A stretch of DNA of 64,000 nt from Parcubacteria group bacterium M10-OD1-1 (GTDB taxonomy: Bacteria; Patescibacteriota; Minisyncoccia; Moranbacterales; UBA2206). Location of the stretch: contig LSNL01000003.1 in NCBI GenBank assembly GCA_003056145.1, forward strand, positions 73,993 to 137,992. The letters are read 5' to 3'. Made by a program: the position numbers and the translations under genes. The first letter of the stretch is position 1. Every line of letters starts with the position of its first letter. Shown here piece by piece: positions 43,138 to 59,952 of the stretch. The notes beneath the pieces are model-generated. The model saw nothing but the letters and a program-made list of their open reading frames with translations, made no database searches and was not told the origin of the DNA.

Positions 43138-44034
43138 ATGACTGAAATGAAGAAGGCTGACATTAAAGTAGGATTTTTATGTAATAATAATTGCTTTTTT
43201 TGTGTCCAGGGACATAAAAAAATTTTTGGTAATAAAACAACTAGAGAAATTAAAGCTTCTATAAAGGAAGCTAGAAAAGATTGTGAAATAGTCGTTTTTA
43301 CTGGAGGAGAGCCAACTATTAGAGAGGATATTTTAGAATTGGTGAGTTTTGCTAAAAATTTAAAATTTAAAATTATTCAAATTCAATCAAATGGTAGAAT
43401 GTTTGCTTATAAAGATTTCTGCCAAAAAATAGTTAACGCTGGAGCTAACGAGTTCGCTTTAGCTTTACATGGACATAAAGCTGATTTACATAATTATTTG
43501 ACCCAACAAAATAGTTTCCTTCAAGTGGTTAAAGGAATTAATAATCTTAAAAAAATGAATCAATCAGTGATAATGAATACTGTGATTGTAAAGTCTAATT
43601 ACAGATATCTTCCAGAAATTACAAAACTTCTTATCGGACTTAATGTGGATCAGATTCAATTTGCTTTTGTCCATGCTCTTGGTGCAGCGAAAGATAATTT
43701 TGACAAAGTAATCCCTAGAATTAGCCTGGTTATTCCTTTCCTTGTAAAATCTTTAAAATTAGGTACTCGTTTTAATAAGAAAATAATGGTGGAGGCTATT
43801 CCCCCTTGTTTTTTAAAAGATTTTCAAGAACATATTTCTGAAAATAGTATGCCAGAAATGAAAATTTTTGATTTGGATAATATTGTAGATAATTTTAAAG
43901 AAGCTAGAATAGTAGAAGGAAAAATGAAAAATACAAAATGTAAAAAATGTACTTTATTTTCAGTGTGTGAAGGTCCATGGAAAGAATATCCAGAAAGATT
44001 TGGTTGGGACGAATTTAAGCCAGTAATAAAATAA
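43138..44034 (+). CDS. Radical SAM protein (CNNNCxFC / GGEPT paralog group), C-terminal Cys cluster
   Basis: FLCNNNCFFCVQG (CxxxCxxC), TGGEPT, C-terminal CKKCTLFSVCEG. Confidence 0.8.
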   Translation: MTEMKKADIKVGFLCNNNCFFCVQGHKKIFGNKTTREIKASIKEARKDCEIVVFTGGEPTIREDILELVSFAKNLKFKIIQIQSNGRMFAYKDFCQKIVNAGANEFALALHGHKADLHNYLTQQNSFLQVVKGINNLKKMNQSVIMNTVIVKSNYRYLPEITKLLIGLNVDQIQFAFVHALGAAKDNFDKVIPRISLVIPFLVKSLKLGTRFNKKIMVEAIPPCFLKDFQEHISENSMPEMKIFDLDNIVDNFKEARIVEGKMKNTKCKKCTLFSVCEGPWKEYPERFGWDEFKPVIK

Positions 44035-44036: not shown

Positions 44037-45170
44037 ATGAAAAAGGAGAAGTTAAAATTAAAAGACACTATTGCTAAAGAAAAACGTCATTGGGTGAGAA
44101 TTACTAACTCTTGCAATAATAATTGTCTTTTTTGCTTAGACAAGGAAAATCAAGATGGAACTTTTGTTTCTTTTCAAGAAATTGTAAAAGAGTTTAAGAA
44201 AGGACTATCGCTGGGTGCAAAGCGGGTTATTATTTCTGGGGGAGATCCAACGATTCATCCTGATATTTTTAAAATTATCAAAAAAGCTAATTCAATAGGT
44301 TATAGTCATGTACAGATGATAAGTAATGGGAGAATGTTAGCTTATGGTGATTTTGCAAAAAAACTGAAAGAAGCAGGTTTAGATGAAATTACTATATCAA
44401 TGCATAGCCATATTAAAGAAAAGTTAGAGAAAATGACTCAAATAAAAGGGAGTTATGATCAAGCAATGAGGGGGCTTATAAATGCTTTGAAATATAAATT
44501 TATTGTGAGTGTGGATATTGTTATAAATAAAATAAATTATAAAACATTAGGAGACTCATTGAAATTCTTTATAAAATTAGGTGTTTCTGAATTTGATTTA
44601 TTATATGTAATCCCTTTTGGGAGTGCTTGGAAAAATAGAAAAAAACTTTTTTTTTCACCAGAAAAAGCCAAGGACTATCTAGATAAAGCATTTGAGTTAT
44701 CAGATAATCCAGATTTATTTATTTGGACCAATAGATTACCAGCTATTTTTTTAGAGGGCTACGAACATTTAATTCAAAACCCCATTAAGCTTAAAGATGA
44801 AGTTAATGGAACGCAAAAAGAATTTGAAGCATATATATTTAATAATAAAGAAAGGAATTGCAAAGGAGAGAGATGCAAATATTGTTTTATGAAAGATTTC
44901 TGTAGTGATTTGGAAGCTATTAAAAAAGAAGGCAAGTTAACTTCAAAAACTGAACCTATTTGTATATCAAAAAAAAAGGTAAAAAAATATACATTCAAAC
45001 TGGATAAAAAGTTTGATGTATATAATTTTCTAGATTTTTATATTCAGCATCGATATTTTGTAAAAAGTTTAAGATGTACTAATTGTCGTTATAATAATAA
45101 TTGTTCTGGTGCTCACATTGAAAAAATTAGAAAGGAAGGATTTAAAATTTTAAAACCAATTAAAGAATAA
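44037..45170 (+). CDS. Radical SAM protein (same paralog group), extended Cys-rich C-terminus
   Basis: SCNNNCLFCLD, SGGDPT, C-terminal CKGERCKYCFMKDFC...CTNCRYNNNCSGAH. Confidence 0.8.
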   Translation: MKKEKLKLKDTIAKEKRHWVRITNSCNNNCLFCLDKENQDGTFVSFQEIVKEFKKGLSLGAKRVIISGGDPTIHPDIFKIIKKANSIGYSHVQMISNGRMLAYGDFAKKLKEAGLDEITISMHSHIKEKLEKMTQIKGSYDQAMRGLINALKYKFIVSVDIVINKINYKTLGDSLKFFIKLGVSEFDLLYVIPFGSAWKNRKKLFFSPEKAKDYLDKAFELSDNPDLFIWTNRLPAIFLEGYEHLIQNPIKLKDEVNGTQKEFEAYIFNNKERNCKGERCKYCFMKDFCSDLEAIKKEGKLTSKTEPICISKKKVKKYTFKLDKKFDVYNFLDFYIQHRYFVKSLRCTNCRYNNNCSGAHIEKIRKEGFKILKPIKE

Positions 45171-45274: not shown

Positions 45275-47068
45275 ATGAAAATAAAAAATTGTCATAAGGA
45301 TGAGAAAACATTTAAGTGTGAAAATCCTAAGATTACGCTAAGCAAGCTAGAAAAAGCGTTTGATGAATTAGGATTAGATGTTGAATATACAGGGAGAGTT
45401 TTTTGTAAGGACACTTTATATTCCGGGTCTCTTATAATTCCTTCATTAAATTATATTGTTAATGGAAAGGGTATCTCTTATGAACTTGCTAAGGCTAGTG
45501 CCTATTCAGAAATGGCCGAGAGAATTTCTTGTGGATTTTTTAATTTTTTTCCAGTAAAAAATCAGAGTAAAAAAAACTTAATTGATAAGAAAAAACTATT
45601 TGATTTTTACTACTTTTCTTATCAAAAAGGTTATAGACATGGGCGGCAAAGCTTATTTGAGAATTCTCTAAAGATTGAAAATATATTTAAAAAACAAGGG
45701 TTATCCAAAAAAGAAGTAGAAAAAATAAAAAAAAGTGAAGTGGCTCAGCATTGGGTAAATGGATATTCTCTATCTAGACAGAAAAATATAAAGGTCCCGT
45801 TGAGATTGATTCATCGAATTTCTGGGACCAATGGTTTAGCGTCTGGTAACACACTTGAAGAAGCTATTGTTCATGGAGCTAATGAAGTTTTTGAGAGATT
45901 TATTTTATTTAAAGTCGTAAAGGAAAAAAAGATTTTACCTACGATCAGAATTTCTTCAATAAAAGATGGTTTTATTCTGAAAATAATAAAATACTTTAAG
46001 AAAAATAATATTGATATAATAATCAAGGATTGCTCTTCAGATGGACATATTCCGTGTATAGGAATTTTATTTATTAATAATAATATTAGGAATAGCAAAA
46101 ATTCAGTAGAAAAAAAGACAAAGTATTTAAGGTGGTATACGGAGGTATCGTTTAATTATAAAGAAGCAATTATCAGATGCTTCACCTCATATACGCAAGG
46201 AATATCAAAAGTGACTGATTTAAAAAAATCAAAAAGTATGGAAGTTCTTTGGAAAGAATGGTTCAGTGAGTTTCCTTTAAAGTCTAATGACAATAAAAAA
46301 TACAGCTATTTATCTAAAAAAAATTTTTATGAAGGTGATTTAGGATTTCTTAAAAAAGGTGGAAAAGTTAGTATAAAAAATATCCAGGAAGGTAAAGAGA
46401 CTAACGATTGCGTTGAAGAAATTAATAAAATAAAATCAATTTGTAAATTTTTAGGTACGGAATTAATTGTTATTGACCAGACTCATCCAGTTTTGAATTT
46501 TCCTGCAGTTAGAATTATTATTCCAGGGGTATCTGATGAAATGAATGCTGAGTATAAAGATAAATTTGATATTGAGAGAATAACTTTGCCGATAGAAAAA
46601 TATTGGACAAAAGAATTTTATGATTTTATTATAAGTAGTAAATGGACAAAAACAAATCAAGGAATAAAAAGTTTGATTGTAGAGATAGAAAAATATATAG
46701 TCACTTTTCCTTTTAATTTTGTTATACAAACATCAGGAGTAGGTAACAGAACTATTAATTTATTTGAATTACTTTTGTCGCTCTATATTAAAATAGGAGG
46801 AGATATTAAATTGGTAAACTGTTTAAATGTTTTGTCAGGATTATATCCGGACGAAGAAAAATTATATAAAACTTTACGTACTTTGGCTACTTCTAATAAG
46901 ATAAAAGAAATGAAAGAAGTTTTGAAACAAACAAGAGGTTGTTACCGGTTTATGCTTAGCCAAGGAAATAATAATCCTTTTATTAATTGGTGCGATAAAT
47001 CATGTGAAAATAGGTGTGTTAGAAATTTTGAAATTAATCTTAAAAAACTTCTTAAAAGTTTTTATTAA
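45275..47068 (+). CDS. YcaO-domain protein (E. coli YcaO-like, stand-alone type)
   Basis: NGKGISYELAKASAYSEMAERIS and NGLASGNTLEEAIVHGANEVFERF match the two YcaO ATP-binding signature blocks. The N-terminus aligns with E. coli YcaO. 597 aa. Confidence 0.8.
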   Translation: MKIKNCHKDEKTFKCENPKITLSKLEKAFDELGLDVEYTGRVFCKDTLYSGSLIIPSLNYIVNGKGISYELAKASAYSEMAERISCGFFNFFPVKNQSKKNLIDKKKLFDFYYFSYQKGYRHGRQSLFENSLKIENIFKKQGLSKKEVEKIKKSEVAQHWVNGYSLSRQKNIKVPLRLIHRISGTNGLASGNTLEEAIVHGANEVFERFILFKVVKEKKILPTIRISSIKDGFILKIIKYFKKNNIDIIIKDCSSDGHIPCIGILFINNNIRNSKNSVEKKTKYLRWYTEVSFNYKEAIIRCFTSYTQGISKVTDLKKSKSMEVLWKEWFSEFPLKSNDNKKYSYLSKKNFYEGDLGFLKKGGKVSIKNIQEGKETNDCVEEINKIKSICKFLGTELIVIDQTHPVLNFPAVRIIIPGVSDEMNAEYKDKFDIERITLPIEKYWTKEFYDFIISSKWTKTNQGIKSLIVEIEKYIVTFPFNFVIQTSGVGNRTINLFELLLSLYIKIGGDIKLVNCLNVLSGLYPDEEKLYKTLRTLATSNKIKEMKEVLKQTRGCYRFMLSQGNNNPFINWCDKSCENRCVRNFEINLKKLLKSFY

Positions 47069-47082: not shown

Positions 47083-48018
47083 ATGGCAAAAATAGGATAT
47101 ATCCAAGTAACTCGTACTTGTAATCAAAAATGTATAATTTGTTCTAATCCTCCTAATGAAAAAGTGTTAAGTCTACAAACAGCCAAACTGGAAATAGATA
47201 AATTAAAAAATAATGGTTGCACAGGAGTTATTCTTACAGGAGGAGAACCAACTCTTTATGAGAAATTACCAGAGCTAATTAGATATAGCTTTAAGAAAAA
47301 TATTTTTCCTAGAATTATTACTAATGGGCAAAAAATAGCTAAGCTAAGATATTTAAAAACTCTTCAACGAGCTGGATTAAAACATATACATCTTTCTATT
47401 TTTTCTTATCAAAGTAAAATTCAAGCTAAAATTTCTCAGAATAATCATTCACTTTATAATATAAAAAGGGCTTTAGACAACTTAAACAAAGTAGAAGGCA
47501 TAACCGTTGATGTTAATACGGCTATTAGTAAATATAATGCTAATCATTTATCTAAAACGGTTCAATGGATTGTAAAAAATTATCCTTTTATAAATCATTT
47601 TGTATTTAATAATCTAGATCCTTATATGAATAGAGCCATGAAGAATCCTCAGATAATTCCCACTCTTAATGATTTTGAATTAGAGCTACACAGAGCTTTA
47701 AGTTTTTTAGAAAAAAATAAAAAAACTTTTCGAGTTGAGAAAGTCCCGTTGTGTTATTTGACGGACTATGAGCATGTTTCTACAGAAACTCGAAAAATTG
47801 TTAAGAAAGAGAGCAGAACAGTGTATTTTTTAGATGAGAAGAAGAGAGTAACTCAAAAAAGCTGGTTTTCTAGAAAAACAGATGACTGTCAACAATGTTC
47901 TTTGAAAAATATTTGTTCAGGATTGTATGCTATTGGGGGTTTTTATAAAGAGACAGAATTATATGCTGTCTTTGAAGATCCGAAAAAAATAATTAAAAAA
48001 ATTAGACAAAACCAATGA
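47083..48018 (+). CDS. Radical SAM protein (same paralog group)
   Basis: TRTCNQKCIICSN, TGGEPT, C-terminal CQQCSLKNICSG. Confidence 0.8.
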   Translation: MAKIGYIQVTRTCNQKCIICSNPPNEKVLSLQTAKLEIDKLKNNGCTGVILTGGEPTLYEKLPELIRYSFKKNIFPRIITNGQKIAKLRYLKTLQRAGLKHIHLSIFSYQSKIQAKISQNNHSLYNIKRALDNLNKVEGITVDVNTAISKYNANHLSKTVQWIVKNYPFINHFVFNNLDPYMNRAMKNPQIIPTLNDFELELHRALSFLEKNKKTFRVEKVPLCYLTDYEHVSTETRKIVKKESRTVYFLDEKKRVTQKSWFSRKTDDCQQCSLKNICSGLYAIGGFYKETELYAVFEDPKKIIKKIRQNQ

Positions 48019-48965
48019 TTTTTAATTATTTATTTCTGGGAGTAATTTTATTAGTTAGTTTGGTAATTTGTTGGGAAGACATTCAGCATAAAAAAATTAG
48101 AAACAAATTAATTCTAATTGGTTTGCTCTTAGGCGCTATTTTATTCGGAGGCTCATATTTTTTAGGATGGATTAATAATTATTATTTAAAAGTTGTTTTC
48201 TTTAACACTGTAATTGCGATAGTAGTTAGTTTTTTAATTTGGAAAATGGGATTTTGGCCAGCTGGAGATAGCAAATATTTTATATTGATAGCTTTTCTTT
48301 TACCAATACATTATTATAATAAGTCATACTTGGAATATTTTCCTTCTTTTATCTTATTAGTGAATATATTTATTTTATTCGTAGGAATTATTTTAGTTAA
48401 AGTAATATATTTTAACTCAAGAAGTTTTATAATCTTTTCAGCCAAAACAAACAGAGGAGAGCTTAAGCAAAAATTTTTTCAAGTAGTGAATACTCTTATA
48501 GTCAATATGCAAAATGTAAGTAACTGGAAAAAATGGGGGAAGGGGATGCTATTAGGGGGAATGATGTATTTTATTCTAAGTTTTTTTATTTATAAACGGA
48601 GTATTGATTTAGTGCCTTTCTTTATATATTCAACGGCCTTTGGCTTATTTGATGTTATTTTTAATTTTTACAATCAATCATTTGCTAAAAAATCTATAGA
48701 CATTATTAATTTACAGCCAAAAATGAATTTAGCTGATGAGTTTCCAAGCGATTTAAAAAAAGATAAAGAAAGAATAGAGAAAATTGGGAAATTAAGGCCA
48801 GACGGATTAGATAAACAACAGGTAAGAGTTATTAAAGAATACTATATCAGTAAAGACTTGAAGCAGATTTATATTTATAAAACAATTCCTTTTTCAATCT
48901 GGATATTTATTGGTACGGTAATAACAATAATTTTTCAAAGAAATATTATCCAGATTATTTTATAA
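48015..48965 (+). CDS. Polytopic membrane protein with an N-terminal A24-like (prepilin-peptidase/TadV-type) aspartic peptidase signature
   Basis: WEDIQHK... (first Asp) and WPAGDSKYFILIAF (GxGD-type second Asp) about 65 aa apart, then about 190 aa of extra TM region. Confidence 0.4.
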   Translation: MIFNYLFLGVILLVSLVICWEDIQHKKIRNKLILIGLLLGAILFGGSYFLGWINNYYLKVVFFNTVIAIVVSFLIWKMGFWPAGDSKYFILIAFLLPIHYYNKSYLEYFPSFILLVNIFILFVGIILVKVIYFNSRSFIIFSAKTNRGELKQKFFQVVNTLIVNMQNVSNWKKWGKGMLLGGMMYFILSFFIYKRSIDLVPFFIYSTAFGLFDVIFNFYNQSFAKKSIDIINLQPKMNLADEFPSDLKKDKERIEKIGKLRPDGLDKQQVRVIKEYYISKDLKQIYIYKTIPFSIWIFIGTVITIIFQRNIIQIIL

Positions 48966-48980
48966 TATTTTCAAAAAAAG

Positions 48981-50576
48981 ATGAAATATTTTCAAGATTT
49001 TTTTTGGTTTAAAATGGGAATAGCTATTTTAACATCCTTTTTATACTTCTTTTCTTTTCCTGGCAATTTTAATGCGGGTTTGTTGTCATTTATCGCGTTA
49101 ATACCTTTCTTTTGGTCAATTACAAAAATTAAAAAATATTGGCAAGGAGCATTGTTGTCTTTCGTAGTTTTTTTTCTAGCTTTTTTATTAATTACTAATT
49201 GTTTCATAAAAATTAATATTATAATCTGGATAGTTGTAAGCTTAATATATTCTTTAATATATTATATCCCCTTAGGTTTAGCATTAGTTTATTTTAACAG
49301 AAAATATCAGGCTTATAATATTATAAATTATCCAGCTGTGTTCATTCTAATAGAATGGTCTAGGAGTTTTGGTATATTAGCTTTGCCCTTTGGAAATATT
49401 TCTAGTTCACTTTATCGGTACCCTTACCTCATTCAAATAGCTGCATTTCTCGGTGAATATTCGGTAAGTTTCTTGATTGTTATAGTCAATGTATCTTTAA
49501 TGGTAGTATTAAAATTTCTGCTAACACATAAAAAATTACTTAAAATAGAAAAAATTTTATTAACATTAGCTATAAGTATATTCATTCTTAATTTATTTAT
49601 TGGTATTTTTGAAATTAAGAAAAATCATCCTGAAATTGAAAGGAAAAGTATTAATGTGCTAGTCATAAATCCAAAAATAAAAAGTGATATTGGATCTGGT
49701 ATGAATAAAAAAGAGCTCGCAGATTATTCAGATGCACGTCTTAACTCAGTTATTAAATTGACCAATGATGCTATGAATAAGATTAGTTCTAATGTTGACT
49801 TAGTTATTTGGGGAGAGGCGACTATTATGAATGATGTTTTTTGGAAATATAAAAATGAGGGAGTTAACTATTATCCATCAAATAATGCAATAAAACTTAA
49901 ACAGTTTATTGCTCGGAAAGGGGTACCAGTTTTGCTAGGGGGCTATGTGTTCGAACTTAAACATGGTAAGATGATTTTTTTAAACAGCTCGGTACTTATA
50001 AATTCTAGCGGAGTGATTAAGCAGACTTACGAGAAAAATAAACTTATTATTTTTGGGGAGTATATTCCTAGTTATTTAAGATTTTTAATTCCTTATGCTA
50101 AGAAAATGGATCTTAAATCTAGACTGATATCTAAGAGTAGAACTGTCTTTAATATTGATGGTTTTAAGATAGTAACTCCCATATGTTTTGAAAATGGTTT
50201 TAACTCTTATCTGCGGGATTTATTGCGATCTGGAGATGTGGATTTAATCGCTAATATATCTGATGATAGTGTTTTTCGTAGCCAGTTTGAAGCTAGACAG
50301 CATTTTGCTGCTAATGTTTTCAGAGCAATAGAAAATCGAACAAATGTAGTGGAAGTTTCTAATTTTGGTATTAATGGAAAAATATCTAAGTATGGAATTA
50401 TCAGTAAAGACACTTCTTCTCAAGAAGGATATCTCTTGATAAATTTTAAAAAAAAAGAAGGAAAAATATTTACAACATTCTCAAAGTATGGTAATCTAAT
50501 AGTAGGAATTATAATTGTTAGTTATGTAATAGTTTTATTGATGATGTTTATTAACTTTTTTATTTCTAATAAATAA
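48981..50576 (+). CDS. Apolipoprotein N-acyltransferase-like protein (N-terminal polytopic domain plus C-terminal CN-hydrolase domain)
   Basis: VIWGEAT (Glu), PICFEN (catalytic Cys) in nitrilase-superfamily spacing. Six to eight N-terminal TM helices. Confidence 0.6.
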   Translation: MKYFQDFFWFKMGIAILTSFLYFFSFPGNFNAGLLSFIALIPFFWSITKIKKYWQGALLSFVVFFLAFLLITNCFIKINIIIWIVVSLIYSLIYYIPLGLALVYFNRKYQAYNIINYPAVFILIEWSRSFGILALPFGNISSSLYRYPYLIQIAAFLGEYSVSFLIVIVNVSLMVVLKFLLTHKKLLKIEKILLTLAISIFILNLFIGIFEIKKNHPEIERKSINVLVINPKIKSDIGSGMNKKELADYSDARLNSVIKLTNDAMNKISSNVDLVIWGEATIMNDVFWKYKNEGVNYYPSNNAIKLKQFIARKGVPVLLGGYVFELKHGKMIFLNSSVLINSSGVIKQTYEKNKLIIFGEYIPSYLRFLIPYAKKMDLKSRLISKSRTVFNIDGFKIVTPICFENGFNSYLRDLLRSGDVDLIANISDDSVFRSQFEARQHFAANVFRAIENRTNVVEVSNFGINGKISKYGIISKDTSSQEGYLLINFKKKEGKIFTTFSKYGNLIVGIIIVSYVIVLLMMFINFFISNK

Positions 50577-50598
50577 TTATTTTTTTTGATCTAAACTA

Positions 50599-51279
50599 AT
50601 GAATAAATTTATTCCTAGGGCAGTCATTTATTTAGGTTTATTTTGTCTGTTAATTGGGATTAGTTTTTTCCCTAATGTTGCGTTGGGTATTGGACCACCA
50701 CCACCACCACCACCAGTAACTCATACTGATAGATTTGTATGTGCTCCTGACGGTCAGACACCTGTTGTTATATTAAAATCATACGAAAGTGGGGTTGATT
50801 ATAATTTGTCGGTATGTGCTCCGGGTCCATTTTTAAATGCTACTGCATGTTACAATCAAGATGACCATGTGTATACTTGTGCGCTATCTTCATCAGATTA
50901 TGATAGCCAAGACAATGAATGCAAATCGGTTGATTTTGATTATACTCCTGTCGTAGCTTCAAGTTGCTCTGGAATCGATAAGTTTACTTGTAATGCTGGA
51001 TATACATATAGTAGCGGTACCTGTTGGTCAGCTTGGACCCCTTTGGCTAGTACAGTATGCTTGGGAGTTTCTTTTACTCAAACAAGAACGGATGGTTACG
51101 GAGATATACAAACACAAACTGCCGTTGGTACTAAAACTAGTTCAATTTGGACACCACCTGAAGATACCGTTTGCAATGGACGTATTTTTCAACAGGTAGG
51201 TGACTGCGGGGACCTAAAAGTAACAAAATCAGTAGGTACTAGAAGTTGTGGCTGGAGAGAAGTGAATCCATCTTTCTAA
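50599..51279 (+). CDS. Secreted Cys/Ser/Thr-rich protein with a polyproline linker
   Basis: Signal peptide, PPPPPPP, then 16 Cys in a region that is locally GC-richer. Confidence 0.5.
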   Translation: MNKFIPRAVIYLGLFCLLIGISFFPNVALGIGPPPPPPPVTHTDRFVCAPDGQTPVVILKSYESGVDYNLSVCAPGPFLNATACYNQDDHVYTCALSSSDYDSQDNECKSVDFDYTPVVASSCSGIDKFTCNAGYTYSSGTCWSAWTPLASTVCLGVSFTQTRTDGYGDIQTQTAVGTKTSSIWTPPEDTVCNGRIFQQVGDCGDLKVTKSVGTRSCGWREVNPSF

Positions 51280-51358: not shown

Positions 51359-51862
51359 ATGAAAAATCATCAAAGTATCAAAACTAAAAAAAATCTTAAA
51401 AAAAATGAAATTAGCTTTTTATTGAAGACTGATATTTATCCAAAATATATTATCTATAAAGCTTGTTATACTTTTATTGATCGGGTGTATATTTATTTGG
51501 ATAAACATACTAAAGAAGATATAAAAGTTACTTTAAAGGGTAAAAATAAATTAAAAGATAAGGATATAGATTCATTAAAAGGATTATTCCTTAACGAATT
51601 ATTAAATGTAATTTTAAGAGAAAATATTACCAAAAGGAATAAAAAGATATTAGAGTATATTGTTGGTGGAGCTATTAATGCTTCTTTGGAAAATAATAAA
51701 TTAGTAGAGTTGGAGAATAAAAGTAAAGACCAGCTAGATAAGAAAGAATCAGAAGAAGATATTAATGTTGAAAAAGAGATAGCAATTTTAAAAAAAGAAT
51801 TGGAGAAAATGGAAGAAGAAGATTTTGAAAATGATTCTCTTGGAATTAAAGAAGTCTGTTAG
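51359..51862 (+). CDS. Hypothetical Lys-rich protein with a coiled-coil C-terminus
   Basis: ORF only. Confidence 0.35.
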   Translation: MKNHQSIKTKKNLKKNEISFLLKTDIYPKYIIYKACYTFIDRVYIYLDKHTKEDIKVTLKGKNKLKDKDIDSLKGLFLNELLNVILRENITKRNKKILEYIVGGAINASLENNKLVELENKSKDQLDKKESEEDINVEKEIAILKKELEKMEEEDFENDSLGIKEVC

Positions 51863-51888: not shown

Positions 51889-52119
51889 ATGAAAAAAAGA
51901 TTAACGAAAAAAATGAAATTTAGTTGCAGTTTATATAGCCAGCAAAGCGTTGAAAAGACCATTGATAATTTTAGAGATGGTAACCAAGATATTGAATTTA
52001 AATTTAAGAGAATTAAAGGATATGTAGAAATAGTAATTAATTATTCAAATTCAAAATTAGTTAACGAAGAATTTATAAATGAATTTTCTAATTATTTATT
52101 ATTTCTTAATATTAAATAA
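51889..52119 (+). CDS. Small hypothetical protein (76 aa) immediately upstream of an rSAM/SPASM gene
   Basis: ORF abutting the 52122 start by 2 nt. Candidate partner or precursor. Confidence 0.3.
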   Translation: MKKRLTKKMKFSCSLYSQQSVEKTIDNFRDGNQDIEFKFKRIKGYVEIVINYSNSKLVNEEFINEFSNYLLFLNIK

Positions 52120-52121: not shown

Positions 52122-53600
52122 ATGAAAACTAAAAATAAAGAGATGAAAGTTTCTAAGATAGGTAATTTTAGATTCAAAGAATTTAAAAATAAAGTTCTTA
52201 TTACAAATGATGGAGGAGATTGGATGTGGCTTAGCTCAGATAATTTTAGTAAGTTATCAACAGGAGAAATTAAAAAAGATAATCGGATATATCAAGAACT
52301 AGTCAAGAAAAATTTTGTAGATGTTGATAAAAAAAAAGTAATAAAGTTGGCCAGAAAATATTTGCGATTAAATCAAACAGTTTTTCAAGGTACTTCTTTA
52401 TTTATTATCGTTTTAACGTTGCGATGTAATCACCGTTGTCTTTATTGTCAGGCTATACCAGAACATCCTAGCAAAAAAGGGTTTGATATGGATAAGGAGC
52501 AAGCAAGAAAAGTAGTAGATTTAATTTTTTGTACGCCTTCTCATTATGTTAATATTGAATTTCAAGGAGGAGAACCTCTTTTGAATTGGGAAATCTTAAA
52601 ATATATAACTAAATATGCTAAAAAAGTTAATAAAGAAAAGAAAAAGGATTTAGGAATTAGTTTAGTGTCTAATCTAACTTTATTAAACGATGAAAAATTA
52701 AAGTATTTATTAGACAACAATATAAGTATTAGTTGTTCTTTTGATGGACCTTCATATGTTCATAATAAAAATAGGCTTTATTTAGAGGATAATAATGGTC
52801 ATAAGGCAGTTGTAGCTAAAATAATCAAAGTTCAAAAAGCGATTAAAGCTAAGAAGAAAATAAATAAAAATAAATTCGTTGATCAACTTAATGCCGTTTT
52901 AACCGTTAGTCGTTTCGCACTTCCTTATCCTAAAAAAATTGTTGATGAGTATTTAAAAAGAGGATTTGGAAATATTTTTATTAGACCCTTAAGTCCTTTC
53001 GGGTTAGAAAGGAAAACTTTAGATATAATCGGTTATAAGGCGGAAGATTTTATCAAGTTCTATATAAAGATGATGGACTATATTCTAAAAATTAATTTAG
53101 AAAAAAAAATGTTCATAGAGAGGACTACTTTCTATGCTTTGAAGAAAATTATACAACAAGAAGATCCTGGATATTATGAAATGAGATCTCCCTGTGGAGC
53201 TGGTATTGGACAGATGGCGTTTGATTATGATGGTAGGATATTCACTTGTGATGAAGGAAGAATGGCAGCTAGAATGGGTTATGATAATTTTATGCTAGGT
53301 GATGTTAATGAAAATGATAATAGGGAAGGTTATAATAAATTGATTGATAATGAAGTTACTAAAACTATGTGTCTAGCTTCATCATTAGATAATTATACTG
53401 AATGTCAAAATTGTCCGTACAAACCATATTGTGGAACTTGTCCTCTAGCAAATTTTATTGAATTCGGAACAATTATGCCTCAAATTTCTAATACTGATCG
53501 TTGTAAAATAAATAAGGCGATGTTTGATTATATCTTTTTAAAAATGAAAAATGAAAAATACCGAGCTATTTTTAACAGTTGGTTGGAAAATTCAAAGTAG
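52122..53600 (+). CDS. Radical SAM/SPASM peptide-modifying enzyme with an about 90-aa N-terminal extension
   Basis: LRCNHRCLYCQ, QGGEPLL, C-terminal CGAGIGQ...CDEG...CQNCPYKPYCGTCP (SPASM auxiliary-cluster Cys). Confidence 0.85.
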   Translation: MKTKNKEMKVSKIGNFRFKEFKNKVLITNDGGDWMWLSSDNFSKLSTGEIKKDNRIYQELVKKNFVDVDKKKVIKLARKYLRLNQTVFQGTSLFIIVLTLRCNHRCLYCQAIPEHPSKKGFDMDKEQARKVVDLIFCTPSHYVNIEFQGGEPLLNWEILKYITKYAKKVNKEKKKDLGISLVSNLTLLNDEKLKYLLDNNISISCSFDGPSYVHNKNRLYLEDNNGHKAVVAKIIKVQKAIKAKKKINKNKFVDQLNAVLTVSRFALPYPKKIVDEYLKRGFGNIFIRPLSPFGLERKTLDIIGYKAEDFIKFYIKMMDYILKINLEKKMFIERTTFYALKKIIQQEDPGYYEMRSPCGAGIGQMAFDYDGRIFTCDEGRMAARMGYDNFMLGDVNENDNREGYNKLIDNEVTKTMCLASSLDNYTECQNCPYKPYCGTCPLANFIEFGTIMPQISNTDRCKINKAMFDYIFLKMKNEKYRAIFNSWLENSK

Positions 53601-53603: not shown

Positions 53604-54764
53604 ATGAAATCAAAAAGTCAAATCAGTAGAAAGAATGATATACCTGAAAGCCTAAATTTATTTTTTACTGACAGATGTAATTTGGACTGTCAATATTGTT
53701 TTGTTAATAAAAATGGACATAAAGAAAATACTTTAGAGGAAGATTCTTTAAAGAAAAGTGTTGATTTGTTATTGGAATATCCTCAAGCAGAGAAAATGAT
53801 TAGTTTCAGTGGAGGGGAACCAATATTAGAATTTTCATTATTAAAGAATATTTGTGACTATGCTAAAAAAAAAGCGTTGCAAAAAAGAAAAAAGTTGCAT
53901 ATGTTTGTTGCTACTAATGGGACACTTCTAAATCAAAAGATAGTAGATTATTTTTCGAAAAATAATATTGCTATTAAAATTAGTCTTGATGGTAGTAAGG
54001 AAACCCATGATAAAAACCGTTCCTTTAAAAATCAATCTCATCTGTCTAGTTTTAAGCAAATAATGGACAATTTAGCTAGTATTGATACTAGTCGATTAAA
54101 TGTTTCAATTTCTATGGTTTTTACTCCCGAAACAATAGATAATCTTTTAGATAATATTAAATTTTTAAATAAAAAATCATTTACTGCTATTAATTTTTAT
54201 CCAGATTTATATGCAAATTGGAAAAAAAATGACTTAATTAAATTTAAACAAACATTTAATAAATTCGCAATTTATTATGTCAATCTCTTTGACCAAAATA
54301 AAGTAAATAATATTTTTAAAAATTATTTTTTGGATTCTATCTTTAACAAAGTGAATAGCAATAAGATGAGTAATTGTGATAAACTAAACTTAAGTTCGTC
54401 AGGTCAATTTTATGTTTGTGATAAAGTTCTTTCTATTAAGGACGTTAAACGAAAAAATTATATCATTGGAAATGTTAAACAAGGTGTTAATAATCAGAAA
54501 AGGATAGAATCTTTAAGAAAAATCAGGGATGATTTTTTGAAAACTAGTAAGCTGAATTGTGAGAAGTGTCAGTATTATGAATATTGTTTCTGTCCAATAG
54601 GACATTATATTTATTTCTCGAATAGTATAGAGAAAAATAAAAATGATTATTGGAAAAATTTTTGTTTTATATCCCGAAACTATAGTAAGATTTTTCTAGC
54701 TATAAATAAATCATTAGAAGATAACAAAAAATATATCAAAATATATAAACAAAATAAGTTGTAG
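53604..54764 (+). CDS. Radical SAM/SPASM peptide-modifying enzyme
   Basis: TDRCNLDCQYCF, SGGEPIL, C-terminal CEKCQYYEYCFCPIGH. Confidence 0.85.
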   Translation: MKSKSQISRKNDIPESLNLFFTDRCNLDCQYCFVNKNGHKENTLEEDSLKKSVDLLLEYPQAEKMISFSGGEPILEFSLLKNICDYAKKKALQKRKKLHMFVATNGTLLNQKIVDYFSKNNIAIKISLDGSKETHDKNRSFKNQSHLSSFKQIMDNLASIDTSRLNVSISMVFTPETIDNLLDNIKFLNKKSFTAINFYPDLYANWKKNDLIKFKQTFNKFAIYYVNLFDQNKVNNIFKNYFLDSIFNKVNSNKMSNCDKLNLSSSGQFYVCDKVLSIKDVKRKNYIIGNVKQGVNNQKRIESLRKIRDDFLKTSKLNCEKCQYYEYCFCPIGHYIYFSNSIEKNKNDYWKNFCFISRNYSKIFLAINKSLEDNKKYIKIYKQNKL

Positions 54765-54799: not shown

Positions 54800-55090
54800 T
54801 TGTTATATAATCCTATGAAAAGAATAAATAATAAGTTTCCAAAAATAAAAAAAGAATTAAAGACTTTTTTATTAAGCGAAGAGGGAAAAATTGTTGAGAA
54901 AGATGCTATTAAATTAGGAATCGCATTAATTGCAGTCGCTGGAATTTTAAGCGGAGTAATGAAAATTAAGGATGTTCACGCAGGAACTTGTGCTCACGTA
55001 TCTCATGGTTCTCATGGTTCTCATGGTTCTCATGGCTCTCATGGCTCTCATGGCTCTCATGGTTCTCATTCTCAAGGTGGTTGGTGTTAA
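54800..55090 (+). CDS. His-Xaa-Ser repeat peptide, a candidate RiPP precursor: leader with a hydrophobic helix plus CAHV-(SHG)7-SHSQGGWC
   Basis: Seven perfect SHG triplets flanked by Cys at the extreme C-terminus. Located between two rSAM/SPASM pairs. Confidence 0.7.
   Translation: MLYNPMKRINNKFPKIKKELKTFLLSEEGKIVEKDAIKLGIALIAVAGILSGVMKIKDVHAGTCAHVSHGSHGSHGSHGSHGSHGSHGSHSQGGWC
55001..55069. repeat. 9-bp tandem repeat (tctcatggy x7) encoding (SHG)7
   Basis: Read from the sequence. The third position of Gly alternates t/c. Confidence 0.85.
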
Positions 55091-55120: not shown

Positions 55121-56026
55121 ATGAAAAGAAAAATAATTATTGGAGCAATTGTCATTTTATTGCTAGTGATTTTAAGTGCATTGGGACTATTTTTTCTTCG
55201 AGACAATAATCAGACAAGTAATTCTATAAATAATCCTAAAGAACAAACAAGCAATAATATTAAAGCAGGTAACCAAATAAATAATAGTATTAATTTTAAT
55301 AACCAAAAAAACAATAATATCAAAACAGGAAAAATTTTTAAAAGGAGTAACTTACAAGATTGTCAACAAAATTTATTAAAGGATAATTATACTCAGAATG
55401 ATTTTAGTTTAGAATATTATTATGTAGTCAAATCATTTTTAAACAAGAATCAAAAATTTTGTAAATTACTCAGAAATAAAGATTCGGTAGATAATTGTAA
55501 TAATATATATAGTTTGTATGTATCCTTAGCTAATAATAACTGCCAAAGCATTAAAAATAATAAAACTGCTTATTCGTTTTGTTTAGCAAATTCAAAGCAC
55601 AATATTAATCTCTGTCCAACAGAAAATAAAGATTCTCAGCAGATTTGTCAAGCAATTACGAAAGGAGATGAAACAATGTGTCAAGGGCTAAAAGATACAA
55701 AGACTGATCACACTTTAAATCGATGTCGGAATGAAGTTTATTTAGCTAAGGCAGTTGAAAATAAAAATGTTTCTTTATGTCAAAAAATTAAAGCAATCAA
55801 TCCACAGGGATCTGCCGAAAAGTTTATTTGCGATGTTTTCACTGGAGATAGTCAATCTAGTTTAACGAAGGCGCTCAATTCTTTTAAAGAAAATATTTGT
55901 TACGAGCGATACGGAAATGTTACTGCTAAAGAAAAAAATAATAAATCTATTTGTGAAAAAATTCCTTGGAAAAGTGACTTTAGTAAGATAGGATATCAAG
56001 AATGTATTAATCAGTTTAATCAGTAA
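55121..56026 (+). CDS. Membrane-anchored Asn-rich protein with 14 periodically spaced Cys
   Basis: N-terminal TM, then repeated x(10-20)-C-(Q/x) units. Confidence 0.5.
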   Translation: MKRKIIIGAIVILLLVILSALGLFFLRDNNQTSNSINNPKEQTSNNIKAGNQINNSINFNNQKNNNIKTGKIFKRSNLQDCQQNLLKDNYTQNDFSLEYYYVVKSFLNKNQKFCKLLRNKDSVDNCNNIYSLYVSLANNNCQSIKNNKTAYSFCLANSKHNINLCPTENKDSQQICQAITKGDETMCQGLKDTKTDHTLNRCRNEVYLAKAVENKNVSLCQKIKAINPQGSAEKFICDVFTGDSQSSLTKALNSFKENICYERYGNVTAKEKNNKSICEKIPWKSDFSKIGYQECINQFNQ

Positions 56027-56036: not shown

Positions 56037-56954
56037 TTGAGAAATAAATATTTAGCTGAAAATGTTTTAAACCTAGCTGATAATTTAGAAGTCTCTCCCT
56101 TAACAATAAAAAAAACCACTTCTTTCTTAAACAAATTAATCAAATTAGATTCTAAAAAGATAACTCAATTTGAGTTATCTTTTAAGGCTAAGAGGCAGCT
56201 TAAAGAAAAAAGAAAAATTCGGATTTTAAATATTGATTCTAAAGCGTATTCTTATTTTAGCCAAAAATTATACACGAAGAGAATAAATGATTATTATTCA
56301 TTAATTCAAGATAATAATAATCCGTGGTTAGCAAGGTTATTCCGTAGTTTATTATCTATTGCAGATAATCCGTTGGATGTTTATATGGGGGCTGATGTAG
56401 AGAACAATTATTGTCTTTATGCATTCTGGCTAATATTTGGAGGTGCTCAAAAAGACGGAAAAATAAGCTTTGTTAAAAACAGCAATGAGCTAATTAACAA
56501 AATATTTAAAACTCTAAAAATAAAACCAGAATTTCCAGTCAGCAAGGACATACTTAATTTAGGATTTGATATTGATAATAGCTCTTTTTTTTATAAAATT
56601 TATTATTTTTTAAATAAAAATAATTATAATACAATTAGTCAAGAAAGCAGGTCGGTAGTACATACTATTATTAAATTTTTGAAAAATAACCATAAGTATT
56701 GGTTTTTTGTCAGCGAAAGATTTGAAGTAGGGAAAAAAAATATCAATAGAAAAAAAATATACCTAGAGTTCTTAGATGATTTAAAAATAAATCAAGAAGA
56801 AACCTATAAATTACTTGACCATCTATTAAAAATAATTGGATGTGATTATAAAATTAAAAAAATAAAATCCCTGCTGAAAAACATCAAAGGAAAAATTGTT
56901 ATTTTGGCGTTTGAGGATGATGGGACAACAACATTTTATATAAGGCTAGATTGA
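56037..56954 (+). CDS. Hypothetical protein (305 aa, TTG start) inside the rSAM cluster
   Basis: ORF only. Its stop (TGA at 56952-56954) abuts the ATG of the next rSAM gene at 56955. Confidence 0.4.
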   Translation: MRNKYLAENVLNLADNLEVSPLTIKKTTSFLNKLIKLDSKKITQFELSFKAKRQLKEKRKIRILNIDSKAYSYFSQKLYTKRINDYYSLIQDNNNPWLARLFRSLLSIADNPLDVYMGADVENNYCLYAFWLIFGGAQKDGKISFVKNSNELINKIFKTLKIKPEFPVSKDILNLGFDIDNSSFFYKIYYFLNKNNYNTISQESRSVVHTIIKFLKNNHKYWFFVSERFEVGKKNINRKKIYLEFLDDLKINQEETYKLLDHLLKIIGCDYKIKKIKSLLKNIKGKIVILAFEDDGTTTFYIRLD

Positions 56955-58046: not shown

Positions 58047-58127
58047 ATTTAATTAGTTAAAAATTTGAAGTGAAATAAATTTTGTAATCGGTGTCTCTAC
58101 AGAGTGGGTTTAAATTAATTTAATAGA

Positions 58128-59941: not shown

Positions 59942-59952
59942 TTTTTAAAAAT

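What the first reader, a model, noticed from the sequence alone, without database searches (positions are those of the whole stretch)
48015..51279. A24-like aspartic-peptidase membrane protein, Lnt-like CN-hydrolase and a polyPro/Cys-rich secreted protein embedded in the rSAM block
48015..48965 has both catalytic Asp contexts of TadV/FlaK-type prepilin peptidases (WEDIQH...WPAGDSKYF) in its first approximately 120 aa, then an approximately 190-aa polytopic extension; this fusion is unusual. Its start overlaps the stop of rSAM 47083.

The next gene has the Lnt architecture (polytopic N-domain plus nitrilase-fold with E...K...C in PICFEN).

The gene after that is an exported protein with a PPPPPPP linker and 16 Cys, and is noticeably GC-richer than its neighbours.

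These could provide leader-peptide cleavage, N-acylation or hydrolysis, and a Cys-rich substrate for the maturation machinery, or they could form an independent lipoprotein or pilin-processing unit.
Basis: partly seen in the sequence, partly recalled or inferred. Interest (0 to 1): 0.55.

Follow-up and report, generated by a model that had tools for sequence, protein, structure and literature searches.

The report
Membrane protease module of expanded HXS cluster
The three genes are the end module of a large radical-SAM "His-Xaa-Ser" peptide-maturation cluster in an ultra-small (Patescibacteria-type) bacterium, and the first gene is an unrecognised family of prepilin-peptidase-like membrane proteases that travels with such clusters across bacteria and archaea and probably trims the cluster's pilin-like precursor peptide.

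Summary
The ORFs and motifs are real. Two corrections: the secreted protein has 13 Cys, not 16, and its higher GC reflects amino-acid composition (GC3 equals the neighbours').

The "rSAM block" is an expanded His-Xaa-Ser (HXS) system: HxsB, HxsD, an HxsA3-type precursor, about 8 further rSAMs and a YcaO.

- **A24-like protein (48015-48965).** It is not a chance fusion. It is a conserved, unannotated family (NCBI labels homologues "FUSC family protein"). Both Asp residues and the C-terminal helix are invariant. It lies inside Hxs/rSAM clusters in 79 of 84 loci from Patescibacteria, Omnitrophota, Elusimicrobiota and DPANN archaea, usually directly after an rSAM gene.
- **Precursors.** All 24 HxS-repeat precursors found share a basic leader with FLxSEEG(K) followed by a hydrophobic helix. 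This resembles the Flp prepilin leader FLKDESG|A. I infer this is the protease's substrate.
- **Cys-rich protein (50599-51279).** It belongs to a fast-evolving family of secreted Cys-rich proteins ending in ...W[RK]E[VI]xP. These follow the A24-like gene in about 14 of 20 informative Patescibacteria-type loci.
- **Lnt.** It has an intact E-K-C triad. It is a patchy accessory, adjacent in 4 loci; its sister lineage is lgt-linked.

No pilin, Tad, lgt or lspA genes occur in the window. I classify this as a new variant of a known kind; the biochemistry is inferred.

The parts
43138..44034 (+). HxsC4-like radical SAM enzyme (298 aa), first gene of the conserved rSAM298-rSAM377-rSAM311-A24 module
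   Evidence: Pfam Radical_SAM. NCBIfam HxsC4 gives 163 bits, below its cut-off of 500. Orthologues at 54-67% identity hold the same position in L001, L005, L006, L091 and L096.
44037..45170 (+). HxsC-like radical SAM enzyme (377 aa)
   Evidence: syntenic orthologues at 52-63% identity.
45275..47068 (+). YcaO-domain protein (597 aa), a variable insert in the module
   Evidence: Pfam YcaO 150 bits. Present in L005/L008/L017 and absent in L001/L006/L096.
47083..48018 (+). HxsC-like radical SAM enzyme (311 aa); its stop overlaps the A24-like start (ATGA)
   Evidence: An orthologue lies immediately upstream of the A24-like gene in 28 loci.
48015..48965 (+). A24/GxGD-type aspartic membrane protease-like protein (316 aa), family-defining long form; catalytic candidates D22 and D85
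   Evidence: Pfam PF01478 33.4 bits against GA 26.5. D22, WPAGDxK, N117, F293 and G300 are invariant. AF2 pLDDT 78.7; the only meaningful PDB fold hit is FlaK 3s0x (prob 0.91, E 0.12). Embedded in Hxs/rSAM clusters in four phyla.
48981..50576 (+). Lnt-family acyltransferase (531 aa), triad E279/K352/C402; patchy accessory of the module
   Evidence: The same adjacency occurs in L007 (80% identity), L091 (39%) and, in a different order, L019 (25%). The sister lineage L092 overlaps lgt.
50599..51279 (+). Sec-signal, Cys-rich (13 Cys) exoprotein with PPPPPPP linker, TSP1-like WSxW..C.G..F.Q.R repeats and a C-terminal GWREVNPSF tail
   Evidence: Proteins with the same tail follow the A24-like gene in L003, L007, L009, L012, L015-L020, L023 and L096.
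51359..51862 (+). HxsD
   Evidence: NCBIfam TIGR03976 58.7 bits against cut-off 50.
51889..52119 (+). HxsD-like small protein (76 aa)
   Evidence: NCBIfam NF038315 34.4 bits against cut-off 41; conserved in L001 and L007.
52122..53600 (+). HxsB radical SAM/SPASM maturase
   Evidence: NCBIfam TIGR03978 479 bits against cut-off 370.
53604..54764 (+). Radical SAM/SPASM maturase in the HxsC position (PapB-like)
54800..55090 (+). HxsA3-type precursor: basic leader with FLLSEEGK, hydrophobic helix, VHA|G (AXA-like) site, 8 consecutive HxS repeats, GGWC end. The probable real start is the ATG at 54815.
   Evidence: NCBIfam HxsA3 61 bits against cut-off 65. Sequence. The leader is conserved in all 24 HxS-repeat precursors from other loci.
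55121..56026 (+). N-terminally anchored Cys-rich protein (301 aa, 14 Cys), conserved next to the precursor
   Evidence: Homologues follow HxsA3 in L009, L017, L020 and L096.
56037..56954 (+). Conserved protein with no family match (305 aa)
   Evidence: No family hit. Orthologues in L001, L014, L018 and L096.
56955..59237 (+). Two radical SAM/SPASM maturases (56955-58046 and 58128-59237)
   Evidence: syntenic in L001, L006 and L096.
59240..60675 (+). Dph6-like ATP pyrophosphatase (59240-59941) and HxsC-like rSAM (59953-60675)
   Evidence: syntenic in L001, L006 and L096.

Best explanation
Genes 48015-51279 are the terminal module of an expanded, HxsA3-type His-Xaa-Ser (HXS) radical-SAM maturation cluster (43138-60675) in a Patescibacteria-type bacterium.

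**A24-like protein (step inferred).** It is a dedicated GxGD-type intramembrane aspartic protease, with D22 and D85 as catalytic candidates. It is translationally coupled to an HxsC-like rSAM enzyme. I propose that it removes the conserved basic leader of the HxsA3 precursor at or near the invariant-region Gly (FLxSEEG|K), on the cytoplasmic face just before the hydrophobic helix. This would mirror how TadV/CpaA and FlaK/PibD process Flp and class III signal peptides. Cleavage would occur after the cytoplasmic rSAM enzymes have modified the C-terminal HxS repeats. The product would be a membrane-inserted or exported modified HxS-repeat peptide. By analogy with the E. coli HXS system, it would act at the cell envelope, possibly against phage DNA entry.

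**Cys-rich protein (role unknown).** It is one member of a rapidly evolving family of secreted proteins with a conserved C-terminal W[RK]E[VI]xP tail. The family is the usual downstream partner of the protease gene in Patescibacteria.

**Lnt (role inferred only).** It is an active-looking acyltransferase recruited to this module in a few lineages. It may N-acylate an exported product to tether it to the membrane.

**Shown:** family membership, residue conservation and gene linkage. **Inferred:** protease activity, the substrate and cleavage site, and the roles of Lnt and the Cys-rich protein.
For: **Identity of the cluster**
- HxsB scores 479 bits (cut-off 370) and HxsD 58.7 (cut-off 50). An HxsA3-like precursor carries 8 HxS repeats.

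**A24-like family**
- The Pfam A24 match is above the gathering score.
- D22 is conserved in 73 of 73 aligned members, and this is independent of the WPAGD pattern used to fetch them. DxxxKKIxN resembles the TFPP first-Asp motif.
- FlaK is the only credible fold match.

**Linkage**
- 84 loci from Moraniibacteriota, Omnitrophota, Elusimicrobiota, Iainarchaeum and Aenigmatarchaeota carry a homologue.
- In 69 of them a rSAM/HxsB gene ends within 400 bp upstream. The median is 5 rSAM-like ORFs per locus, and only 5 loci have none.
- Start/stop overlaps are seen in the window, L001 and L005-L007.

**Substrate**
- All 24 HxS-repeat precursors found in these loci share K18, F23 and E27 (invariant) and L24 and G29 (at least 90%) in FLxSEEGK. 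Archaeal versions read F[VL][LI]EE[RK]G. A helix of about 18 aa follows.
- Real annotated Flp pilins read FLKDESG|ATAIEYGLI.
- hhalign superimposes the two leaders with P = 0.0018.
- The four-gene proteobacterial HXS has an ordinary signal peptide, no such protease, and N-terminal cleavage by an unidentified route (PMC13128918).

**Cys-rich partner**
- The tail regex hits 14 of 2317 ORFs of at least 120 aa. Thirteen of these are Cys-rich signal-peptide proteins one or two genes after the A24-like gene; L096 adds another and L004 a partial one.

**Lnt**
- The triad is intact.
- Adjacency recurs in L007, L091 (GC 47%, Lnt 39% identity) and L019.
Against: - No biochemical data exist for this family. 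The Pfam score is marginal. No NCBIfam model matches, and a family profile finds nothing in PDB sequences, not even FlaK.
- The motif is PAGD rather than GxGD.
- The precursors do not hit Pfam Flp_Fap. They lack the Flp EY motif. About nine partly charged residues (KIVEKDAIK) separate the conserved Gly from the helix, unlike class III signals. The hhalign probability is only 15%.
- Nearly all precursors also carry an AXA-like site 5-9 residues after the helix (VHA|G, SFA|S, ALA|R, AQA|Q, VAA|T). Signal peptidase I could therefore be the releasing enzyme.
- Lnt's known active site faces outward and acts on lipobox Cys. No lipobox substrate is visible.
- Lnt is absent from most loci. Its nearest outgroup is lgt-linked, so it may simply be the organism's housekeeping lnt.
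- L091's A24 homologue carries an in-frame TAG.
Confidence: 0.55

Rival explanations
1. The hydrophobic helix of HxsA3 is the h-region of a long Sec-type signal peptide. Signal peptidase I releases the HxS-repeat peptide at the conserved AXA-like site. The FLxSEEG motif is a RiPP-style recognition sequence for HxsB/HxsD. The A24-like protein then acts like a signal-peptide peptidase, clearing or trimming the leader remnant in the membrane, or it processes another cluster protein.
For: - AXA-like motifs lie 5-9 residues after the helix in nearly all precursors from bacteria and archaea.
- The stretch between G29 and the helix is charged, which is atypical for class III signals.
- E. coli HxsA uses a signal peptide plus a separate HxsBCD-dependent cleavage (PMC13128918).
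- GxGD proteases include signal-peptide peptidases (established knowledge).
Against: - The most conserved leader residues (F23, L24, E27, G29) align with the Flp cleavage-site motif.
- Archaeal versions read EERG/EEKG, the (K/R)G pattern of FlaK/PibD substrates (motif from established knowledge).
- A dedicated, translationally coupled protease is a large investment for remnant clearance alone.
Confidence: 0.22
2. Lnt is an independent unit: it is the organism's ordinary housekeeping lnt and lies next to the HXS cluster only by inherited synteny. The neighbouring Cys-rich protein may or may not belong with it.
For: - Lnt passes the lnt equivalog cut-off with an intact triad.
- Lnt is absent from 80 of 84 A24-containing loci.
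- In an NJ tree the window/L007/L091 Lnts are sister to an lgt-overlapping Lnt at similar distance, 0.61 vs 0.67.
- The metagenome scan found no further A24-linked Lnt.
Against: - The adjacency recurs in lineages as divergent as 39% (L091, GC 47% vs 29%) and 25% identity (L019, different gene order). This is unlikely by chance for a single-copy gene.
- Intergenic gaps are 15 and 22 bp with no terminator.
- The Cys-rich protein is clearly not independent. Its family follows the A24-like gene in about 14 of 20 informative loci.
- No lgt, lspA or lipobox ORF is present in the window.
Confidence: 0.3
3. The A24-like protein is the cell's general prepilin peptidase for type IV or Tad pilins, and its position in the cluster is coincidental.
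For: - Pfam assigns it to Peptidase_A24, and JGI named one homologue CpaA.
- In L006 three G|F[TS]xIE pilin-like genes lie 1.6-2.8 kb downstream. L012 has one.
Against: - Linkage to rSAM/Hxs genes holds in 79 of 84 loci across four phyla and two domains, often with overlapping stop/start codons.
- Pilin motifs are near only 2 of 87 loci.
- There are no pilus genes or pilin-like ORFs in the 64-kb window.
- The family is far from canonical PilD/TadV/FlaK in sequence.
Confidence: 0.05

Closest known systems
HXS (His-Xaa-Ser) system HxsA/B/C/D: NCBIfam TIGR03976-TIGR03979 and the HxsA3/A4/C4 models; antiphage function shown in E. coli (Li et al., Nat Commun 2026, PMC13128918)
   Same: - HxsB and HxsD orthologues pass their cut-offs, and the precursor carries tandem HxS repeats.
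- Maturation by paired rSAM enzymes, N-terminal processing and an envelope destination are expected by analogy.
   Different: - This cluster spans about 17.5 kb. It has 8 rSAM genes in addition to HxsB, a YcaO, a Dph6-like ATP pyrophosphatase, two Cys-rich envelope proteins, an A24-like protease and an Lnt.
- The precursor has a Flp-like leader and a membrane helix instead of a Sec signal plus peptidoglycan-binding domain.
- HxsC-like proteins all score far below the HxsC cut-off.
- The hosts are Patescibacteria, Omnitrophota, Elusimicrobiota and DPANN archaea. The published survey found 99.7% in Pseudomonadota.
- Function here is untested.
Type IV prepilin-like peptidases, MEROPS A24 / GxGD proteases: FlaK (PDB 3S0X), PibD, TadV/CpaA, PilD
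   Same: - Two conserved Asp about 63 residues apart (D22/D85; FlaK D18/D79 from established knowledge).
- A DxxxKKIxN first motif and an (A)GDxK second motif.
- A Pfam A24 match, and FlaK as the sole credible fold hit.
   Different: - PAGD replaces GxGD.
- The proteins are 316-400 aa, with extra helices, a small alpha/beta domain and an invariant last helix (PF[AS]xW..G).
- No NCBIfam or PDB-sequence match.
- The genetic partners are rSAM maturases rather than pilus or archaellum genes.
Flp/Tad prepilins (Flp family type IVb pilin)
   Same: A short basic leader ends in F-L-x-[DS]-E-[SE]-G and is followed by an Ala/Ile/Leu/Val-rich helix.
   Different: - No Pfam Flp_Fap match and no EY motif.
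- A nine-residue charged spacer separates the Gly from the helix.
- The C-terminal part is an rSAM-modified HxS repeat.
- No Tad secretion genes are nearby.
Apolipoprotein N-acyltransferase Lnt (E. coli b0657; TIGR00546)
   Same: An eight-helix N-domain plus nitrilase fold. E267/K335/C387, E343 and E389 are all conserved.
   Different: - Only 23% identical to E. coli Lnt.
- The only full-length close relative is the L007 orthologue (80%); the next are 37-38% identical, among 11,328 representatives with E <= 0.001.
- It is embedded between a protease and a non-lipobox exoprotein instead of an lgt/lspA context.

Membership tests
Peptidase A24 / GxGD aspartic membrane proteases | Match to the family profile above the curated threshold | tested here: met
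   PF01478 33.4 bits against gathering score 26.5, residues 10-124. The margin is small and no NCBIfam model matches.
Peptidase A24 / GxGD aspartic membrane proteases | Two conserved catalytic Asp, the second in a GxGD motif | tested here: inconclusive
   D22 (73 of 73 aligned) and D85 are invariant. The second motif is W-P-A-G-D-x-K, i.e. xAGD rather than GxGD.
Peptidase A24 / GxGD aspartic membrane proteases | Fold like FlaK | tested here: inconclusive
Peptidase A24 / GxGD aspartic membrane proteases | Cleaves a class III / prepilin signal peptide after Gly | not testable with these tools
   The candidate substrate is only inferred from the conserved FLxSEEG leader.
Apolipoprotein N-acyltransferase (Lnt) | Equivalog profile score, LNT_N plus CN_hydrolase architecture | tested here: met
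   TIGR00546 216.5 bits against cut-off 132.9; PF20154 plus PF00795.
Apolipoprotein N-acyltransferase (Lnt) | Catalytic triad Glu-Lys-Cys | tested here: met
   E279/K352/C402 align with E. coli E267/K335/C387.
Apolipoprotein N-acyltransferase (Lnt) | Acts in the lgt/lspA lipoprotein pathway on lipobox proteins | tested here: not met
   No lgt, lspA or lipobox ORF in the 64-kb window. Neither Cys226 nor HxsA3 has a canonical lipobox. The rest of the genome could not be examined.
HXS (His-Xaa-Ser) system | HxsB and HxsD equivalogs | tested here: met
   479 against 370 bits and 58.7 against 50 bits.
HXS (His-Xaa-Ser) system | HxsC equivalog | tested here: not met
   The best HxsC score of any cluster rSAM is 104 bits against cut-off 268. 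HxsC4 scores 163 against 500. The HxsC position is held by a PapB-like rSAM/SPASM.
HXS (His-Xaa-Ser) system | Precursor with tandem His-Xaa-Ser repeats | tested here: met
   Eight consecutive HxS repeats. HxsA3 model scores 61 against cut-off 65, just below.
HXS (His-Xaa-Ser) system | Antiphage activity | not testable with these tools
   Shown only for the four-gene E. coli system (PMC13128918). PADLOC v2 has no model.
Flp/Tad pilin | Flp_Fap profile match and G|xxxxEY motif | tested here: not met
   No Pfam hit at E <= 10 and no EY motif. Only the leader is similar (hhalign P = 0.0018, prob 15%).

The most novel reading that the evidence does not exclude
The long A24-like protein would be a combined leader peptidase and export device. 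It would dock the cytoplasmic rSAM maturases (translational coupling with the HxsC-like enzyme). It would cut the Flp-like leader and hand the cross-linked HxS-repeat peptide across the membrane, as peptidase-containing ABC exporters do for other modified peptides. The result would be a pilin-like or lipid-tethered surface layer. In some lineages this layer would be N-acylated by the recruited Lnt on a non-lipobox N-terminus, and it would be partnered by the W[RK]E[VI]xP-tailed Cys-rich proteins. It would guard outer-membrane-less ultra-small CPR and DPANN cells against phage DNA entry. This would be the first GxGD protease serving as a RiPP/protein-maturation leader peptidase, and a non-canonical use of Lnt.
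Probability: 0.15. Interest if true: 0.85.

Novelty: new variant of a known kind. Interest (0 to 1): 0.62.

Why it matters
- **A candidate for an open question.** The 2026 work that established HXS as a phage-DNA-entry barrier left the N-terminal processing route of HxsA unexplained. It also found the system almost only in Proteobacteria. Here a much larger HXS variant carries its own candidate processing protease and a precursor with a prepilin-like leader. This gives a directly testable protease-substrate pair.
- **Wider host range.** The variant is conserved across Patescibacteria, Omnitrophota, Elusimicrobiota and DPANN archaea.
- **A new protease family.** The work defines a family of GxGD-type membrane proteases that NCBI currently labels 'FUSC family protein'.
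- **A new secreted-protein family.** It also defines a family of secreted Cys-rich proteins with a conserved C-terminal tail.
- **Lnt in a new context.** It shows an lnt gene recruited outside the lipoprotein pathway context.
- **Cost to the cell.** An organism of this kind commits about 17.5 kb to the cluster, so the product is likely important for its envelope biology.

Tried and rejected
- **First-pass conclusion overturned.** BLASTP at E <= 1e-5 suggested Lnt and the Cys-rich gene were a one-lineage insertion. This was reversed by the exhaustive representative search and context look-ups for Lnt, by inspection of genes downstream of A24 homologues, and by a C-terminal motif scan.
- **Pfam on precursors at E <= 10.** No Flp_Fap hit.
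- **PADLOC.** Only generic viperin-like rSAM similarity.
- **AF2 of the Cys-rich protein.** With 4 sequences the model had pLDDT 37 and was unusable, so no fold search was done.
- **Family profile against PDB sequences.** Nothing found.
- **Promoter/terminator scan.** Counts equalled the shuffled background in this AT-rich DNA, and there were no intergenic terminators.
- **Metagenome scan with an Lnt alignment.** Only the known L007 contig and distant Lnts at 23-34% identity, one next to lgt and none A24-linked.
- **Cluster look-ups for organism names.** No name for the window's own proteins. Taxonomy rests on relatives: Moraniibacteriota / Patescibacteria group.
- **Foreign origin of the Cys-rich gene.** Rejected, because GC3 equals the neighbours'.
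- **Lipoprotein status of the Cys-rich protein or HxsA3.** Rejected for lack of a canonical lipobox. Some precursors do read [LF]A[SQ]C.

Full report
**1. What is there**

The window is AT-rich (29.4% GC) with almost all genes on the + strand. The three ORFs are as described.

- *48015-48965 (316 aa).* It matches Pfam Peptidase_A24 just above the gathering score, over residues 10-124 only (33.4 vs 26.5 bits). No NCBIfam model matches. Its ATG overlaps the stop of the preceding rSAM gene (ATGA).
- *48981-50576 (531 aa).* It has LNT_N plus CN_hydrolase domains and passes the lnt equivalog cut-off (216.5 vs 132.9 bits). Aligned with E. coli Lnt fetched from MG1655, E279/K352/C402 match E267/K335/C387. 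E360 and E404 match E343 and E389.
- *50599-51279 (226 aa).* It has one N-terminal hydrophobic segment, an ALG|IG site, seven prolines and 13 Cys, not 16. Its GC is 39.5% but its GC3 is 22%, like its neighbours, so the GC excess is compositional.

**2. The surrounding block is an expanded His-Xaa-Ser system**

NCBIfam identifies HxsD (51359-51862), an HxsD-like protein (51889-52119) and HxsB (52122-53600, 479 vs 370 bits). It also identifies an HxsA3-type precursor (54800-55090, 61 vs 65 bits) with 8 consecutive HxS repeats ending in GGWC. Around them lie:

- five HxsC-like or HxsC4-like rSAM genes and three more rSAM/SPASM genes;
- a YcaO and a Dph6-like ATP pyrophosphatase;
- an anchored Cys-rich protein (55121-56026) and a conserved protein with no family match (56037-56954).

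The rest of the window is housekeeping: aminoacyl-tRNA synthetases, F-type ATP synthase, TsaD, TGT and RecG. It contains no pilus, Tad, lgt or lspA genes, and no ORF with a prepilin or lipobox motif.

The four-gene HXS system was shown in 2026 to block phage DNA entry in E. coli. There, HxsA is N-terminally cleaved by an unidentified, HxsBCD-dependent route, and 99.7% of systems were found in Pseudomonadota (PMC13128918).

**3. The A24-like protein is a conserved cluster component**

- *Rarity.* A search of 5.8 billion proteins found only about 15 full-length homologues.
- *Conservation.* Among them D22, W81-P-A-G-D85, K87, N117, F293 and G300 are invariant.
- *Close relatives.* Contexts of six homologues at 33-78% identity all showed the gene directly after a rSAM of about 300-316 aa (an rSAM311 orthologue in five of the six) inside a multi-rSAM cluster, often with overlapping codons.
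- *Wider distribution.* A scan of GTDB species genomes with WPAGD[SA]K[LYF]F found 136 relatives. They come from Moraniibacteriota, Omnitrophota, Elusimicrobiota and DPANN archaea (Iainarchaeum, Aenigmatarchaeota, Nanoanaerosalina).
- *Linkage statistics.* I compared window proteins with all ORFs of the fetched loci. Of 84 loci with a homologue, 69 have a rSAM/HxsB gene ending within 400 bp upstream. The median is 5 rSAM-like ORFs per locus, and only 5 loci have none.
- *Independent residues.* In an alignment of 83 members, D22 (not part of the fetch pattern) is present in all 73 that cover it. So are I28 and N30 of DxxxKKIxN in 71 of 73. The last-helix residues F293 and G300 are universal.
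- *Architecture.* The long form is therefore family-defining, not a fusion.
- *Structure.* The AF2 model has pLDDT 78.7. FlaK (3s0x) is its only credible PDB fold match, at prob 0.91, E 0.12 and TM 0.36/0.48. A sequence profile finds nothing in the PDB.
- *Annotation.* NCBI labels homologues 'FUSC family protein', and JGI labels one 'CpaA'.

**4. The likely substrate**

All 24 HxS-repeat peptides recovered from these loci share the same N-terminus. It consists of a basic stretch, then P-K-[IV]-K-K-x-[LI]-x-x-F-L-x-S-E-E-G-K, then about nine partly charged residues, then an 18-residue hydrophobic helix. Archaeal versions read F[VL][LI]EE[RK]G[SG]. K18, F23 and E27 are invariant, and L24 and G29 are at least 90% conserved.

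Annotated Flp pilins fetched from Phyllobacterium plasmids read M-T-K-L-F-T-R-F-L-K-D-E-S-G|A-T-A-I-E-Y-G-L-I. hhalign places FLxSEEG on FLKDESG with P = 0.0018 but probability 15%. Pfam Flp_Fap is not matched.

The resemblance is therefore limited to the leader. It is suggestive, not proof.

The proteobacterial HxsA has an ordinary signal peptide, and the system has no such protease. The protease and the Flp-like leader thus appear together.

*A complication.* Nearly all precursors also carry an AXA-like motif 5-9 residues after the helix. Signal peptidase I may therefore release the repeat peptide. This is the main rival reading.

**5. The Cys-rich protein**

BLAST and a 5.8-billion-protein search made it look like an orphan. 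They found only itself, the L007 orthologue, and two partial hits to its WSxW..C.G..F.Q.R (TSP1-like) repeats.

Inspection of the genes after A24 homologues showed otherwise. In L003, L009, L012, L015-L020, L023 and L096 the next gene encodes a signal-peptide protein with 15-37 Cys. Their sequences are barely alignable but all end in C...[NG]W[RKT]E[VI]xP. L004 has a partial one with a textbook TSP1 motif.

The regex [WF].E[VIT].P.{0,3}$ hits 14 of 2317 ORFs of at least 120 aa. About 0.2 would be expected from residue frequencies (my estimate). Thirteen are these proteins, and the fourteenth is an rSAM298 orthologue.

About 14 of 20 informative Patescibacteria-type loci have such a gene. L096 shows the full order in one operon: rSAM386, HxsA3, Cys301, unk305, rSAM363, rSAM369, Dph6, rSAM240, rSAM298, rSAM377, rSAM311, A24, Cys-rich. 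The window is a circular permutation of this order, with the rSAM298...Cys-rich block placed first.

**6. Lnt**

- Outside L007 (80% identity), the exhaustive search of 1.84 billion representatives gave nearest relatives at 37-38% identity.
- One of these (L091; GC 47%; rSAMs 63-66%, A24 35%, Lnt 39% identical) has the same order: rSAM301, rSAM377, rSAM312, A24-like, Lnt, then a signal-peptide protein at the contig end.
- L019 has the A24-like gene, a Cys-rich gene and a very divergent Lnt-like gene.
- A 33%-identical relative (L092) overlaps lgt.
- In an NJ tree the window, L007 and L091 Lnts form a clade. That clade is sister to one containing the lgt-linked Lnt (L092/P0177) together with P0027, a homologue whose genomic context is unknown, at similar distance.
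- Lnt is thus a recurrent but minority neighbour, seen in 4 loci and about 3 independent lineages. It may be either the cell's only lnt or a recruited copy.
- In the three loci with the close Lnt clade, the Cys-rich protein has a Pro/Gly linker right after its signal site (IGPPPPPPP, IGTGGGGVPPPP, GGPGPDP). None of eight proteins from loci lacking Lnt does. This is only two independent observations, but it fits an N-terminal tether.

**7. Mechanism**

*Best-supported reading (confidence 0.55).* Cytoplasmic rSAM enzymes modify the HxS repeats. The A24-like GxGD protease is coupled to the HxsC-like enzyme. It removes the Flp-like leader at the inner membrane face, and the helix-anchored or released peptide acts at the envelope.

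*Shown:* family assignments, conserved residues and gene linkage. *Inferred:* catalysis, substrate, cleavage site, topology, and any role of Lnt or the Cys-rich proteins.

*Rivals:*
- signal-peptidase release, with the A24-like enzyme acting in a signal-peptide-peptidase-like way (0.22);
- Lnt as housekeeping (0.30 for that sub-question);
- a general prepilin peptidase (0.05).

**8. Novelty**

HXS systems, A24 proteases and Lnt are each known. NCBIfam already models HxsA3, HxsA4 and HxsC4. Three things appear new:

- a dedicated, unannotated A24-like family as a hallmark of the expanded HXS variant across CPR, DPANN, Elusimicrobiota and Omnitrophota;
- its pairing with Flp-like precursor leaders;
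- the tail-tagged Cys-rich partner family, with occasional Lnt recruitment.

Full-text searches found no paper linking prepilin peptidases to rSAM precursors or to HxsA. No paper mentioned Lnt in Patescibacteria.

Noticed in passing
window 43138-44034 (C-terminus) and orthologues in L001, L006, L009, L091: The rSAM298 family ends in FGW[DE]EFKP[VI]... This resembles the GW[RK]E[VI]xP tail of the secreted Cys-rich proteins encoded in the same module. It could be a shared docking epitope or a coincidence.
   Followed up: partly
window 54800-55090 and 24 precursors in L001-L085: An AXA-like motif (VHA|G, SFA|S, ALA|R, AQA|Q, VAA|T) lies 5-9 residues after the hydrophobic helix. Many precursors have a Cys just after it and a C-terminal GGWC. 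Some read [LF]A[SQ]C, which is lipobox-like.
   Followed up: partly
L091 5042-5990: The A24-like homologue next to Lnt carries an in-frame TAG. After it, the conserved last helix (VYKTIPFAAWILVG) continues in the same frame. This could be a pseudogene, a sequencing error or read-through.
   Followed up: partly
window 26338-29259: The leucyl-tRNA synthetase (973 aa) carries a NUDIX domain match (residues 422-518) inserted after the editing domain.
   Followed up: no
window 48981-50576: NCBI's annotation of this gene is a 412-aa product starting at residue 120. That start would delete most of the LNT_N domain (Pfam match 20-171). The 531-aa ORF is the better model, and the L007 orthologue is annotated at 531 aa.
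   Followed up: partly
L006 12539-14329: Three type IV pilin-like genes (G|FTIIE, G|ISIIE, G|FTLIE) lie 1.6-2.8 kb downstream of the A24-like gene, after a 384-aa protein with GYAWSxNFGW repeats. Only L012 has another such motif.
   Followed up: partly
window 45275-47068; L005/L008 6658-7920; L017 3788-5131: A YcaO gene is inserted in the rSAM298-rSAM377-rSAM311 module in some lineages and absent in others (L001, L006, L096). The L005 YcaO is only 24% identical to the window's.
   Followed up: no
P0023/P0024; L004 11134-11991: TSP1-like repeats occur in several otherwise unrelated Cys-rich proteins of these organisms. They read WSxWSPxxSTxCxGxxFQQxR, and in L004 WSGWGSCTASCGGGTQYRYC. P0023 sits among very large proteins with no Pfam matches (1192, 701 and 413 aa).
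   Followed up: no
window 3365-5275 and 1182-2363: A 636-aa DUF11/DUF7619-repeat surface protein, and a stand-alone HypF C-terminal (Kae1-like) carbamoyltransferase domain protein on the minus strand.
   Followed up: no
window 43138-60675: About 17.5 kb is devoted to this one cluster, and the gene order is broadly conserved across relatives. This pattern is unlike the patchy distribution expected of a mobile defence island.
   Followed up: no
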